From: Octopus vulgaris
Taxonomy: Eukaryota
Direction of reading: 5' to 3'
NCBI GenBank assembly: GCA_951406725.2
Contig: OX597831.1
Span: 15,934,001-15,998,000 of the forward strand
Length of the DNA: 64,000 bases
Below the pieces are notes generated by a model. The model was not told the DNA's origin, ran no database searches, and saw only the letters and a list, made by a program, of their open reading frames with translations. Position 1 is the first letter of the stretch. Each line of letters opens with the position of its first letter. Position numbers and translations under genes: made by a program. This document shows, piece by piece, positions 20,442-39,872 of the stretch.

Positions 20442-20530
20442 AAGCACACGTTTCGTGAAAAACGGTATGGTAGTGGAGACTACACTGAATAAATTTGTCC
20501 CGAAAACACTTTTCAAACAACTTCGCACGC
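20442..20530 (-). CDS. Gene B exon 3: RAKLFEKCFRDKFIQCSLHYHTVFHETCA
   Basis: ttttctgtttcag|G ... T|gtaagt. 89 nt, phase 2 to 1; homologous to 39203-39291 and 58619-58707. Confidence 0.88.
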
Positions 20531-21005
20531 CTGAAACAGAAAAGATTTTGTAAAGAAATATTATTGTGGAAAATGGACATTTCTACAGTTGAAAATAGTT
20601 TAAAATATTCATGTTCTAACATCTAAGAAACTTTGTGTTTTACAAAATAATTACACGAGGACAATAACTGAAGGTTTTACAACGATTAGATTTTAGGAGC
20701 AAACCTTTAAAATTGTGCTGATAATTTTCCCAAAGAAGAATTAATAATCTTAGCATCTCTAATCTGATCCTAATTAAAAGACATATATTATTCATTTTGA
20801 TCAATTTTAAGGCCATACCATGGAATATTTTACTTATGCTTTGTCCGATAGCATGGTTAGAAGTTAAAGCAGGAGGTTACTTTTAACAATTCAAATGTCT
20901 AGTACAAGCAAAATGTGATAGACAGAAATACTAGCACTGAATAGTTGATAATATTTATGAATTAGATAAGTGAATAACAGAAGTAATAGTGGAAGAGTTA
21001 TGTAC

Positions 21006-21105
21006 TCGCAGAAAAGATTATCATTTCTTTTTTCAGGATATTTTTGAAAGACTTGCGGACACAGAAGTTTAGCAGTTTCGTAGCAAAATCTTGAGGCTGT
21101 AAAAC
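21006..21105 (-). CDS. Gene B exon 2: (G)FTASRFCYETAKLLCPQVFQKYPEKRNDNLFC(E)
   Basis: ttccag|GT ... GA|gtacat. 100 nt, phase 1 to 2; shares FC..T.K.LCP...QKYP with gene C exon 2. Confidence 0.88.
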
Positions 21106-22755
21106 CTGGAATTCGATAAATAAAAACGGTCAATTAAATATATATCACAAACACACACACACACACACACACATATGGCAAATGAAAAACGGAAATAGAA
21201 TATACGAAAATTTATTATTAATCACGACAATTGTTTCGAAATATCTAGCATCCATCCCTCATGGCTAGGATACTCGACAACTGGTTCAGGATCATCCGGT
21301 GGTGCAGATGTATCTCGTCGGGTGATAAATAAGAACAACTCTTTAAAATAACGGTTCCGCAATGTAACTTCTCGTTTTGTAGTAAGAAAACAGCCAGATG
21401 GAGGAAATATCTTCATTTATATTGAAAATTAAATGTAAAATCACAGATGGTAAAAAGAGAAACGAACACGCAGTCCAGCGAGAAAAATATTAAAAATAAC
21501 CACTAACCAGTATGGATGTATAAAGGCCCTCGCGAAAGTAGCATGGCGCGAGTACATTCGCTCATGCAAGCATCCACGAAAATGTGAGCATACGCACATC
21601 TGATGTTTGGTGCAATCATGATCACAAATCGTTAACTATCTACTTGGTGTTTGTAAAAATGGGGAGATTGAAAGTAAACTGAAGACATCCATACTTTAAA
21701 GTAAATTAAGTTTAGTTAATGGTTACTCAAAAGTAATTCCCATGGCATTGTGTGAAAGTACATTGATATGAATGTAGGCATCTCGAGAGTCGTTAAGAAT
21801 TTCTATTAATGATCTCCTCGTTAGTCAACAGAATATATAGAGATGCCTCGGAGCAGAGACGGTATATTCTGAAATTATATTGCATTGTTTCGAGTGCCTT
21901 ACTATGGGACCAAGTTATGCTGTACTACATTTTATGCTCCTCCAGCCGTCATACAAAATCTGCCAAAGATTTTGTCTCTTTTTGATAATCATAAACCTGG
22001 TAACATCGTTATGGTAAGGTATATTAAATGATTCAGCCGTCTGCCTAATGTAAACATACGGTCCTCCACTTGTGTGCAAGGTACATTTGTATACAAGATT
22101 TTAATACAATATTTGTACATCAGCTCGCTTTCTGACTTAAGACACTCACCCACACACAAATGATGGAAAACTCATACACATTTACATACCTATACACACA
22201 GAAGGACACGCACACACACACACATTCATGCGCACACATATTTTCGTACATTCTAGTATCTGAAGTTCCAAATCTCTAACGAGTGCACCTGCGCGAGAGG
22301 CACACTGAAGTGGCAATTTATTAGAAACTTCCTCAAGTTTAATGAAAAATCAACATTAATTTTCGCGCGGTTATATTAAATGTTGTTTGTTATTTCTTTG
22401 AAATTGATACCCCAAACTAAAGAAGTGTGTGGTATGACGTTTATTATACCGCAAGCAAACAATCTTCAGAGCCTGGGACAACTACTGAAAATATGTTATT
22501 AATACTTCTTACTAAACGAAAGTCTGGGAATATCGTGCACAGTGTTCTGACTAACCTTTGCACAACTTCAATTACACTCTCAGGATATGAGATTTGGAGA
22601 TGGAGAAAATATTGCCTTACGCAAAGATGAGTGACTATTTAATGCTAGAGACTACTATAGATCGCATTTTTATACCACCCATCTATGTCGCAGAAATTTC
22701 CATTTAAGTTTCATAATATATAAGTATATATATATATATATATATATATATATAT

Positions 22756-23010
22756 TGGAAGGTTTGGAGTTGATGTACAGGTATTATATATTATAAGAAA
22801 TGAGGTAATCAGAAGATCGGATGGTTCATGTTTATAGATATTTATTTATATATTACATTTTTTACATATATATATCATATCATTCATCATATCATTCAGA
22901 TTATTTGATATGATCTGAATGATATGATATATATATATATGTAATATATAAAGAAATATCTATAAACATGAACCATCCGATCTTCTGATAACCTCATTTC
23001 TTCTAATATA
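22756..23010. repeat. Foldback (inverted repeat) insertion in (TA)n with one-sided tail; duplicate at 41561-41820
   Basis: agaaatgaggtaatcagaagatcggatggttcatgtttatagata is mirrored by tatctataaacatgaaccatccgatcttctgataacctcatttct. Confidence 0.85.
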
Positions 23011-23046
23011 TATATATATATATATATATATATATATATATATATA

Positions 23047-23345
23047 CATAACTGGAACCTTGTTACCCGAAAATTCTGTTGCCAATAAGAGTTAAGAAAT
23101 GATTCATTACTGATGCCGTGCAAAGGCCTCATATTACTTTAAAGTTTTACTGGCTTTGTTACATACTGCACAGTTATACTGGCTGGCAGGACAATGAGGC
23201 GCCACCGTATACACACACTCTTAAAATGTCTTTTCAGACTTCCAACTGAGAGGCACACCCTTCCACATTTTACACATGTTCTGTTGTGAATTGTAATCGC
23301 CACATCATCGTTTATCATGGTTCGATTACTGTGAGACATTTGATG
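23047..23345 (-). mobile_element. 3' fragment of an RTE-like LINE (C-terminal zinc-finger-like motif); duplicate at ~41880-42180
   Basis: RTCVKCGRVCLSVGSLKRH in ORF 23139..23339. Confidence 0.45.
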
Positions 23346-37090: not shown

Positions 37091-37909
37091 AGATATTCTT
37101 TAAAAAGTAGAATTGAAAGTCGTTAAATCCAACTCAAACGCCGTTTGTAAGAGAGCGTGCGCATGTGCGATTGTGTTATAAAGACTGAAAGAGAGACCGA
37201 GGCTTAAATGTTAAATGTGAGGAAGGTAGAAACCGCTGCAATCGGAAACATTTTAAATTTAATTTTTCAAAAAAAGCAGGATTGTTATTGGCATGGTGGA
37301 GTAGAGAATGAATGGACAGAAAGCAGTTTTGTTAACGAGACGATAAGTGTGATATGATGAAACTTTAAGCATCTGAATCTGTCTCTAAAGTTTCATGGGG
37401 ATTACATTTACTTTAACATAAGCGAAGGGTGAACACAGAAGAGCGATAATCTAAACGATCTCGTATCAATTCATTATCTATTGGTTCTGGCAGATTCGGA
37501 CGTGAACAACTGACCTCTGGGTTTTTTTTCGTCATCGGAGAACTCCTCATTATTCTATTTTTTCATGACATGCGTCATAACAAAGGAATTGCCTGGCAAT
37601 ATGTTTGATTGTAATATTCTATGTTCTTCTTACTATATTGTTAAAGTTATCGTTACAGTTTTATTCCCGCATAGTTGACACTGTGTTGAAATACCGTGAT
37701 ATTGTTGCGTTGCTGTATTAGTCTTATCTCAGTTTTACTGCCTACAATCTTCCTTTAACATGAGTGTATTATTGAAAAGTAAGAGTTATCAATAAAATGA
37801 GTGGGGAAGTATTATACAAATGATAAAATGGTTTTATGTCTATGAAAATTGTCATTCAAAATATAGCCTTATGAGTTGACTTACACCAAATATAAACTTA
37901 TGGTTTTCA

Positions 37910-38019
37910 TCATACCAAGATGAATAATAAAGCTACCATAAGCATGCAGAGGGAGAAGTTAATGTTGGGCGACGCGCCGACCTTCCCGAAAGTATGTGGT
38001 GTTAATGTAGGGTCAGTCC
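37910..38019 (-). CDS. Gene B' exon 4: (W)TDPTLTPHTFGKVGASPNINFSLCMLMVALLFILV*
   Basis: Same splice site as gene B; one substitution (F>L). Confidence 0.78.
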
Positions 38020-39202
38020 CTGAAATAAATATGAAAGATTGGTAAACATCCATTGAAACTCTTACTACACATTGTAGAGATATGGATGCAAATTTTATGC
38101 ATCACTTTCTCGTGCATAAACTAGCCACTCCAGTTTTTTTCTCCAGAACTGCTCCGATTAAACTTGTGATGCGGATTTTAATTTTCCTGGAGACTATGTT
38201 GAAGCTTGCAAAAAGTAGCAAATCCATAATTTGTCTATTTTAACGCTGGAATAGACATTAGAATTTTATTGGTGCTACCTATAGAACTCAATCGTTCTGC
38301 CTGCAACAATCTAAGACAGCTAGAGGTGCAAGAAAACAATAATGTCGGATAGGAATTTAAATGTATTCCACGAAATGTGTCTCGGACAGAGTCTGAGCTC
38401 CAAATGTTCGATTAGTATCCCAAATGAGGAGGTTTCGAGAAGAGCGAGGTCACAACCGCTGCACGGTTTTGCAGCTGAGCGCCGCTTCTGCATCGCTGGT
38501 GTCATTCTCGCTCTAGTCAATCAATGGAAGTCGGAAAATGCCTGTCGCCAGGCATAAAATAGCTATGCGAAAGATCACTTGCTGAAGGTCATTTCATGAT
38601 GAATTCATGACCTTTCGTGGAATGAATATGGTATTCTAGCATCCGGTCGAATTTGGGGGAAAGGAGATTTTCGTGAAATGCGCCGAGCGGTACAGGGAAA
38701 CCTGGATCAAAAGATGTACAACTATTCTACCATTTCTTGAAGTTTCGAAATACTCAAATTTATGTAACGTAAAATTATTCAAATTTATTTACTATAATTT
38801 ACTTTAAAATAACTTTTACACTTTAGCATTTAAACTATCCGTATCTGGCTAAAATACTCTTCCTGTTTTACACGCAAAATGGTCATCCCTGGCCTCTAAT
38901 ATATATCCACCAGCATAATTCTTAAAATAAAGAACCACACCATCAAAATCCCAAACCTACGGGATAATGCATGGTTAATTCAAAACACAGTAAATAAATA
39001 AGCTTTACATTTGGCAGTGCAACCTGAATGCTAGAGTGTTACCTGATAACCAAGCAAAATGTTAAGGATTTGTTTTGAAATATTAAATTGATTTTAATAT
39101 ATGTTCAACGCTTATTAAATTGCATCCGACAAAAGAAGTTTACAGAATTCGATACCGGTTTGAATTTAGTGTTATTACATAATTTACTACATCAAGACTT
39201 AC

Positions 39203-39291
39203 AATCACACTTGTTGGCGATAACGATATTGTAGTAGCGACCACACGTATGATATAATTGCAGAAAACACGTTTCAAACAGCTTCATACGC
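39203..39291 (-). CDS. Gene B' exon 3: RMKLFETCFLQLYHTCGRYYNIVIANKCD
   Basis: ctgttttag|G ... T|gtaagt. 89 nt; all three Cys kept. Confidence 0.88.
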
Positions 39292-39766
39292 CTAAAACAG
39301 AAAAGATTTTGTAAAGAAATATTATTGTGGAAAATGGAAATTTCTACAGTTGAAAATAGTTTGAAATATTTATGTTCTAACATCTAAGAAACTTTGTGTT
39401 TTACAAAATAATTACACGAGGACAAGAACTGAAGGTTTTACAACGATTAGATTTTGGGAGCAAACCTTTAAAATTGTGCTGATATTTTGACCAAAAAGGA
39501 ATTAATAATCTTAGCATCTCTAATCTCATCCTAATTAAAAGACATATATTATTCATTTTGATCATTTTTAAGGCCATACCATGGAATATTTTACTTATGC
39601 TTTGTCCGATAGCATGGTTAGAAGTTAAAGCAGGAGGTTACTTTTAACAATTCAAATGTCTAGTACAAGCAAAATGTGATAGACAGAAATACTAGCACTG
39701 AATAGTTGATAATATTTATGAATTAGATAAGTGAATAACAGAAGTAATAGTGGAAGAGTTATGTAC

Positions 39767-39872
39767 TGGCAGAAATTATGAAGATTTTCATTTCTTCTTT
39801 CAGGATATTTTAGAAAGACTCTCGGACACATAAGTTTAGCAATATCGTGGCAAGATTTTGAGGCTGTAAAAC
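39767..39872 (-). CDS. Gene B' exon 2: (G)FTASKSCHDIAKLMCPRVFLKYPERRNENLHNFC(Q)
   Basis: ttccag|GT ... CA|gtacat. 106 nt, with an in-frame 6-nt indel relative to B. Confidence 0.88.

What the first reader, a model, noticed from the sequence alone, without database searches (positions are those of the whole stretch)
20442..39872. Exon-restricted hyperdivergence between tandem paralogs B and B' (conotoxin/MHC-like diversifying selection)
Manual count. Exon 3 differs at 27 of 89 nt, changing 18 of 29 residues, with only one purely synonymous codon (TTG/CTG). Exon 2 differs at 12 substitutions, changing 11 residues with none synonymous, plus an in-frame 6-nt indel. All six Cys codons and the GT/AG dinucleotides are kept. 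The intron between them differs by only about 3%, exon 4 by 1 nt, and exon 1 by one silent change and an in-frame codon indel. Divergence is therefore about 4-10-fold higher in the mature domain than in flanking DNA and almost entirely amino-acid changing. The near absence of silent changes argues against an old paralog patch copied in by gene conversion. Inference: strong positive selection on the exposed surface, as in arms-race or recognition proteins.
Basis: partly seen in the sequence, partly recalled or inferred. Interest (0 to 1): 0.92.

Follow-up and report, generated by a model that had tools for sequence, protein, structure and literature searches.

The report
Fast-diverging octopus cell-surface protein twins
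Two neighbouring copies of a small, undescribed octopus gene have almost identical DNA except in the two exons for the exposed, cysteine-braced domain, where nearly half the amino acids differ, which points to natural selection driving apart a probable cell-surface recognition protein.

Summary
Counts confirmed. B and B' lie in a 19-kb tandem duplication differing at 1.85% of non-repeat sites, but exon 3 differs at 27/89 nt (18/29 residues) and exon 2 at 12/100 nt; pN 0.25 against pS 0.06, ML omega 5.6-8.9 (p 0.002-0.012). No donor paralog was found, so selection is supported. Two corrections. First, it is not conotoxin-like: the 112/115-aa products have a signal peptide, a six-Cys helical domain and a GPI-type tail, and belong to an undescribed Octopus family (56 exon-2 copies in 764 kb examined; no Pfam family or fold match; neuritin/RGM-N only a lead). 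Second, the flanks probably understate the age: silent exon sites (about 6%), a unique junction insert (5/85) and patchy flank identity suggest homogenisation by conversion, and contigs from other animals carry nearly unchanged B-type or B'-type exon 3 although their introns differ by 1-2%. Best reading: an old, episodic burst of selection, preserved as an opsin/RH-type divergence peak. Expression, tissue and partner are unknown. The pair was picked as an extreme; other subclusters give omega 0.5-1.8.

The parts
25790..25829 (-). Gene B exon 1 (coding): start codon and most of a signal-peptide-like stretch, phase-1 donor
   Evidence: signal peptide judged by eye, no predictor run
21006..21105 (-). 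Gene B exon 2: Cys1-3 (C-x7-C-x16-C)
20442..20530 (-). Gene B exon 3: Cys4-6 (C-x7-C-x11-C), the hyperdivergent exon
19148..19257 (-). Gene B exon 4 (coding): polar linker, small-residue triplet 22 residues from the end, 13-residue hydrophobic end (mean hydropathy 3.2), stop; GPI-type signal
   Evidence: no RNA evidence; first AATAAA about 350 nt into the exon
43901..43943 (-). Gene B' exon 1 (one extra codon, one silent change)
39767..39872 (-). Gene B' exon 2 (12 substitutions, 6-nt in-frame insertion)
39203..39291 (-). Gene B' exon 3 (27 substitutions against B)
37910..38019 (-). Gene B' exon 4 (1 substitution)
11260..30123 (.). Duplicated unit 1, holds B
30212..48329 (.). Duplicated unit 2, holds B'
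30123..30207 (+). Junction insert: 85-nt copy of window 4862-4946 (5 differences), only these two places in G000
20531..20810 (.). Shoulder of raised divergence in intron 2 next to exon 3 (13 of 280)
   Evidence: window chosen after looking; 4.7% of background windows reach this
55290..58707 (+). Paralog C, exons 1-3 (55290-55326, 57260-57362, 58619-58707); exon 4 not found in the window
   Evidence: O. bimaculoides counterpart P0021
1537..4532 (-). Paralog A, exon 1 (4532-4496) and exon 2 (1636-1537, same length, phases and Cys spacing as B); exon 3 probably at G000:C18:15928252, before the window
   Evidence: read by eye; for exon 3; linkage inferred

Best explanation
B and B' are real tandem paralogs encoding small secreted proteins with a three-disulfide helical domain and a GPI-type membrane anchor, members of a large Octopus tandem family. 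Shown: the two domain exons carry a large excess of amino-acid changes with the Cys frame kept, and no donor copy exists in the assembly. Inferred: the domain binds an outside partner that differs or changes, and selection drove the two versions apart in one past episode. Since then gene conversion or unequal exchange between the neighbours has kept introns, flanks, signal and anchor exons alike, while selection removes conversions that would erase the domain difference. This gives a narrow divergence peak as in the red/green opsins and RHCE/RHD. Most likely role (inference only, no expression data): surface recognition in a conflict, host against microbe or parasite about 45%, gamete recognition about 25%, neural or sensory cell recognition about 15%, other 15%. 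Selection as such I put at about 0.9; the full model with homogenised flanks at 0.6.
For: pN 36.5/146 vs pS 2.5/39.7, Fisher p 0.007. Omega 5.6-8.9, p 0.002-0.012 under three codon-frequency models. The N-site excess stays significant against a neutral level of 6% (p 3e-13) or 13% (p 1e-4). No donor: nearest other exon 3 is 38-42 of 84 nt away, exon 2 33-35 of 81; genome-wide DNA searches give only B and B'. Older paralog pairs with pN 0.3-0.4 have mean pS 0.37 (12 pairs, exon 3) and 0.62 (116 pairs, exon 2), against 0.11 and 0.03 here. Age above the flank mean: junction insert 5/85, junction LINE piece 15/344, intron-2 shoulder 13/280, exon pS about 6%. Flank differences are clumped: variance/mean 2.5, 0 of 2000 shuffles reach it; longest identical run 544. 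Run X1 has a B'-type exon 3 about 1 nt from B' while its intron 3/exon 4 contig is 9/815 from B' (B vs B' 15/815); a steady exon rate predicts about 16. X2 holds both types, X3 a B-type 3' half. Helical model, pLDDT 91-95 over residues 31-80 of the paralog P0027. Hydrophobic ends (mean hydropathy 1.7 or more) in B and 10 of 18 database members.
Against: The pair was chosen as the extreme; five other subclusters give M0 omega 0.54-1.78, none significantly above 1, and M2a beats M1a in only 2 of 5 (p 0.027, 0.040, uncorrected). Exon 3 alone gives p 0.067 under F3x4. pS rests on 2-3 events. The shoulder is on one side only: 3 of 500 differences below exon 3 and 0 of 195 next to exon 2. Clumped flank differences can also come from rate variation or alignment near repeats. 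One search showed only 40 of 144 difference rows, contigs are collapsed, and organism labels are coded and may be synonyms. No transcript or database protein of B or B' was found, and the GPI signal was judged by eye; 8 of 18 database models lack a hydrophobic end.
Confidence: 0.6

Rival explanations
1. One reading: a young duplication (flanks are the true clock) followed at once by a very fast burst of about 36 amino-acid-changing substitutions, then stasis.
For: No shoulder on three of four exon borders; exon pS is compatible with 1.85% at p about 0.04-0.2 depending on rounding of 2.5 steps; X1 intron shares 14 of 15 B' states, so B' flanks keep copy-specific history.
Against: Junction insert and junction LINE piece are 4-6% diverged; the burst must fit into the small gap between 1.8% (B vs B') and 1.1% (X1 vs B').
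Confidence: 0.15
2. B and B' began as old balanced alleles of one locus (MHC-like lineages); unequal crossing-over then put both on one chromosome, fixing a heterozygote.
For: Flank distance (1.85%) is of the same order as distances to other animals (1.1% X1 vs B', about 2% X3 vs B); both exon-3 types recur under two organism labels each (B' type in A and B, B type in B and C).
Against: A junction insert 5.9% from its source suggests the duplication itself is old; single-copy haplotypes were not shown, as holes in contigs prove nothing.
Confidence: 0.13
3. Assembly artefact: B and B' are the two haplotypes of one locus laid in tandem. The exon excess would then be allelic, still needing balancing selection.
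For: Flank divergence is allele-like; no read depth or long reads of this animal were examined.
Against: No N in 464 kb around the site; the junction holds a diverged 85-nt insert found only here and at 4862-4946, which a haplotype join would not create.
Confidence: 0.05
4. Exons 2-3 of one copy were patched in by conversion from an older paralog that is lost or missing from the assembly.
For: Sharp exon-limited edges; the family is large and only 764 kb was examined by profile.
Against: No donor in genome-wide DNA searches; pS is far below that of old paralogs at the same pN; two separate tracts would have to skip 195 identical intron bases.
Confidence: 0.04
5. Relaxed constraint or local hypermutation, no selection.
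For: Short orphan octopus genes often have dN/dS above 1 by noise (PMC13669787, section 9); 8 of 19 changed exon-3 codons have two hits.
Against: Relaxation cannot lift pN above pS and flanks; six Cys, frame and splice sites intact; transversion share 25 of 39 is like background 173 of 300.
Confidence: 0.03

Closest known systems
Divergence peaks under gene conversion: primate red/green opsins, RHCE/RHD (PMC3924837, passages read)
   Same: Tandem copies about 20 kb apart, near-identical introns, divergence confined to the functional exons
   Different: Here the peak is nearly all amino-acid changing (omega 5-9) in an orphan surface protein; cross-species intron/exon trees not yet available
Conotoxins (recalled)
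   Same: Fixed Cys frame, conserved signal exon, hypervariable mature region, tandem family
   Different: No propeptide seen, about 62-residue helical domain, GPI-type tail; nothing ties it to venom
MHC peptide-binding exons (recalled)
   Same: Two domain exons with amino-acid excess; types shared across organism labels
   Different: No Ig or MHC fold; allelic polymorphism not shown
Neuritin/CPG15 (PF15056) and RGM N-terminal domain (PF06535)
   Same: Small, six Cys, helical, central C-x8-C-x7-C (seen in the genome's own RGM), GPI anchor (recalled); neuritin is the top named Atlas hit at 0.83-0.84
   Different: No significant sequence or structure match; other Cys spacings differ; these are conserved few-copy genes (recalled), and G000 has its own RGM on contig C2
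Ly6/uPAR GPI-anchored clusters including fish Bouncer (recalled)
   Same: Signal + small disulfide domain + GPI signal, tandem clusters, recognition roles
   Different: Ly6 is a beta three-finger fold with 8-10 Cys; this model is all helix
Uncharacterised Octopus proteins, e.g. O. bimaculoides LOC128249785/786/787/789/852/853, LOC106870879/881, O. sinensis LOC118766390
   Same: Same family, same architecture
   Different: Unnamed; no record matching B or B' was returned

Membership tests
Positively selected exon-restricted divergence | dN/dS above 1 in the domain exons | tested here: met
   omega 5.6-8.9, p 0.002-0.012; Fisher p 0.007; pair chosen post hoc
Positively selected exon-restricted divergence | No donor paralog for the divergent tract | tested here: met
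   assembly may be incomplete
Selection-protected peak under gene conversion | Flanks younger than exons, with conversion tracts | tested here: inconclusive
   clumped differences, older junction pieces, stable exon types; only a one-sided shoulder
Selection-protected peak under gene conversion | Introns group by species, exons by ortholog | not testable with these tools
   one search gives truncated tables of collapsed contigs; no phased ortholog DNA
Conotoxins | Signal-propeptide-short mature toxin, released soluble | tested here: not met
   domain follows the signal directly and is followed by a hydrophobic terminal tail
Conotoxins | Venom-gland expression and toxicity | not testable with these tools
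   no expression data
MHC | MHC/Ig fold | tested here: not met
   all-helical 6-Cys model of paralog P0027; no Ig Pfam match in 19 members
MHC | Balanced trans-species alleles | tested here: inconclusive
   types shared across coded organism labels; allele versus paralog not resolved
Neuritin (PF15056) | Match to the NRN1 profile over its cut-off | tested here: not met
   0 of 19 members; 0 matches in G000 (exon-limited); Atlas 0.83-0.84 is a lead only
RGM N-terminal domain (PF06535) | Match to the RGM_N profile over its cut-off | tested here: not met
   5 of 19 members hit weakly, best E 0.026; hhalign P 0.21; 37 of 1000 Cys-fixed shuffles score as well
RGM N-terminal domain (PF06535) | Same three-helix fold | tested here: inconclusive
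   RGMB 6z3m_O Z 3.5, rmsd 4.0, 55 aligned, end to end, among unrelated rows
GPI-anchored proteins | N-terminal signal plus small-residue site, polar spacer and terminal hydrophobic stretch | tested here: inconclusive
   pattern present by eye and by hydropathy; no predictor or experiment
Ly6/uPAR | Three-finger beta fold with 8-10 Cys | tested here: not met
   6 Cys, helical model

The most novel reading that the evidence does not exclude
Contig C18 15.5-17.3 Mb is an undescribed octopus recognition complex: dozens of GPI-anchored proteins on a neuritin/RGM-like helical scaffold, whose binding specificities persist as old lineages across sibling species and can be fixed side by side by duplication, serving self/non-self, pathogen or gamete recognition in an animal group with no known variable receptor locus of this kind.
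Probability: 0.25. Interest if true: 0.82.

Novelty: new member of a known kind. Interest (0 to 1): 0.58.

Why it matters
The evolutionary pattern is known, but this family is not: no Pfam family, no solved fold and no mention in the literature searches run. A large cluster of small anchored proteins with one pair at omega 5-9 is a concrete candidate for cephalopod immune, gamete or cell recognition, and B/B' is a natural experiment, two proteins alike in signal and anchor but 29 residues apart in a 62-residue domain. It also shows that flank identity can misdate such duplicates.

Tried and rejected
Expression: no RNA holder listed; the one possible RNA run laid (X4) covered 4 of 30 bins, all on a repeat; neither says anything about expression. 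Holes in X1 and X3 cover, including no B-type exon 3 in X1, were not used as absence. Depth cannot give copy number. Fold searches with the model of paralog P0027: Foldseek 0 of 36 matches at E 0.001; VIA wide best Z 5.3, 2 of 48,161 at Z 5 or more, generic helical hits; this shows neither a known nor a new fold, and a domain-only model was not obtained. PDB sequence search: 4 hits at E 0.57-0.89, rejected. Pfam: nothing at cut-off. UniRef calls one member (P0008) 'GDNF/GAS1 domain-containing'; no such Pfam hit in the members scanned, P0008 itself not scanned. P0006 and P0022 are unrelated repeats and were dropped. A B ortholog in O. bimaculoides or O. sinensis was not returned. Plus-strand and other-frame readings of the exons were rejected for stops or lack of the Cys frame. 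Exon 4 of C not found. Literature searches without a description of the family: (listings only). Earlier findings: none.
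Full report
Setting. The window is G000:C18:15,934,001-15,998,000 of a 2.8-Gb genome. Database proteins that contain exons of neighbouring genes are named Octopus vulgaris, so the animal is an octopus, most likely that species. Self-comparison shows a tandem duplication, 11260-30123 against 30212-48329.

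Observation. Both units hold a four-exon gene on the minus strand with intron phases 1, 2, 1 and open frames of 112 (B) and 115 (B') residues. The unit-wide background is 300 of 16,179 non-repeat columns (1.85%), and its worst 89-column window has 13 differences, so the exon peaks are far beyond chance (p 3e-25 and 4e-7).

What the gene is. A signal-like start, a domain with spacing C-x7-C-x16-C-x8-C-x7-C-x11-C split over exons 2 and 3, then a polar linker, a small-residue triplet and a hydrophobic end with nothing after it, the layout of a GPI signal (by eye; hydropathy). Protein searches of the genome gave 20 and 37 exon-2-like matches, on C18 15.47-17.24 Mb and C6 103.9-104.7 Mb. Iterated profiles over 764 kb of held sequence listed 58 exon-2 and 30 exon-3 hits; 56 exon-2 hits have E 2e-4 or better, 35 on C18 and 21 on C6. 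This is a lower bound, and some are repeats within multi-domain genes (P0004, P0005). Paralogs A and C lie in the window. Of 24 proteins found in 1.84 billion representatives, two are unrelated repeats and the rest share the Cys pattern; of the 20 looked up, 19 carry Octopus names and one has none. Most are 'uncharacterised' or 'hypothetical'. The Atlas lists two unnamed, mostly mollusc clusters at 0.94 and 0.92, the first possibly the query's own, and neuritin at 0.83-0.84, a lead only. A model of the paralog P0027 is all helix with pLDDT 91-95 over residues 31-80; B itself was not folded. Fold matches were not informative; RGMB-N aligns end to end but only at Z 3.5, rmsd 4.0 over 55 residues. 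The genome's own RGM shares the central C-x8-C-x7-C, but 37 of 1000 Cys-fixed shuffles score as well. Kinship with neuritin/RGM-N is therefore open and membership is not met.

Selection. Over 62 codons pN is 36.5/146 and pS 2.5/39.7 (Fisher p 0.007). My pairwise GY94 fits give omega 5.6-8.9 with p 0.002-0.012; exon 3 alone ranges from p 0.013 to 0.067. No donor exists among 79 exons compared, the nearest other exon 3 being 38-42 of 84 nt away, nor in genome-wide DNA searches (one search missed B' at 78% identity, but a donor would be near-identical). Paralog pairs with similar pN have pS 0.37-0.62, unlike B/B'. Against the reading: the pair is a post hoc extreme; five other subclusters give omega 0.54-1.78 and a selected class in 2 of 5 at uncorrected p 0.03-0.04; changed sites are not significantly less conserved once Cys are removed. 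The family is fast throughout: likely O. bimaculoides counterparts are about 55-78% identical in the domain exons, while one O. sinensis protein differs from its counterpart at 1 of 115 residues once intron-flank residues in the alignments are set aside.

Timing. Three signs suggest the exons are older than the 1.85% flank mean. First, the junction carries an 85-nt copy of 4862-4946, found nowhere else in the genome and 5 of 85 diverged, and the adjoining LINE piece differs at 15 of 344; these agree with exon pS of about 6% and the 13 of 280 shoulder in intron 2. Each sample is small, and the shoulder is matched by 4.7% of background windows. Second, flank differences are clumped, with identical runs up to 544 columns. 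Third, contigs of three public runs under three coded organism labels (3 holders of 24 listed) were laid on 19050-21135. X1 has a B'-type exon 3: the 16 substitution and 2 indel rows shown rebuild B' except at one site, and its total of 25 other letters fits. Its intron 3/exon 4 contig differs from B' at 9 of 815 sites, against 15 of 815 for B vs B'; a steady exon rate predicts about 16 exon changes. X2 has one B-type contig (4 other letters in 312, two of them intronic) and one B'-type (27 in 311). X3 is B-type over 20442-20484 (3 other letters in 219, where B' has 13) with 1.5-2% substitutions in its intron-3 contigs. Only 40 of 144 rows were shown and contigs are collapsed, so this is supportive, not decisive. 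The exon types thus diverged in a past episode and have since been stable.

Mechanism. Shown: amino-acid excess, intact frame, no donor, large family. Inferred: a real duplication (unique diverged junction, no N in 464 kb); homogenisation of flanks with selection guarding exons 2-3, the pattern described for opsins and RH genes in PMC3924837 (three passages read); surface anchoring; a recognition role. No transcript of B or B' was seen, and tissue and partner are unknown. Rivals are a plain post-duplication burst (0.15), capture of two old alleles by duplication (0.13), a haplotype artefact (0.05), a lost donor (0.04) and relaxation (0.03).

Prior knowledge. Seven searches (listings only) found no description of the family, including a search on six accessions (0 papers); subscription papers are not covered. 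PMC13669787 (abstract, outline, sections 9 and 10 read; preprint searched by terms; supplement unreadable) reports that octopus genes with dN/dS above 1 are mostly short orphans, read as noise or relaxation, and names no such family in what I read. Conotoxin, MHC, Ly6 and neuritin properties are recalled, not from a call.

Verdict. Real and well beyond chance; selection supported; the conotoxin analogy and the flank clock need correction. A known evolutionary kind in an undescribed octopus surface-protein family. Interest 0.58.

Noticed in passing
window 25171-25603: Near-perfect palindrome (426-nt arms matching at 96% on itself) in B intron 1; absent from B', which has a 730-nt gap here.
   Followed up: no
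window 50523-54141: Element bounded by 288-bp inverted repeats (98%), with minus-strand frames at 52596-53878 that look by eye like a Penelope-type endonuclease region; no Pfam hit.
   Followed up: partly
window 4957-8345, 9469-11604, 30212-30556: Fragments of one LINE family (RVT_1 at 6363-6929) sit at the start of both duplicated units and recur many times in the 464 kb around.
   Followed up: partly
window 2525-3181: Tc1/mariner-type DDE_3 transposase remnant in intron 1 of gene A.
   Followed up: no
G000:C6:103.9-104.7 Mb and C18:17.18-17.24 Mb: Multi-domain members: strings of the same six-Cys domain, 4 repeats in P0004 and about 9 in P0005.
   Followed up: partly
G000:C18:15.47-15.52 Mb (L106-L111): Six young tandem copies; M2a over M1a p 0.027, 23% of sites at omega about 6; a second test case.
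   Followed up: yes
G000:C18:15749499 vs 15928252; 17075365 vs 17090712: Other pairs whose aligned flanks (4-6%) are much closer than their silent exon sites (19-29%), hinting at flank homogenisation elsewhere in the cluster.
   Followed up: no
G000:C18:16131289, 16120819, 16105692: Exon 2 and exon 3 hits do not pair one to one here (a possible exon 3 with shorter Cys spacing at 16128829; 15 kb between 16120819 and 16105692); database model P0002 joins exons of different genes out of order.
   Followed up: no
L136 (G000:C2:46683999-46684205): A true RGM N-terminal domain, over the Pfam cut-off.
   Followed up: partly
window 20050-20270: Short interspersed repeat in B intron 3 that draws very high depth in all four runs.
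   Followed up: no
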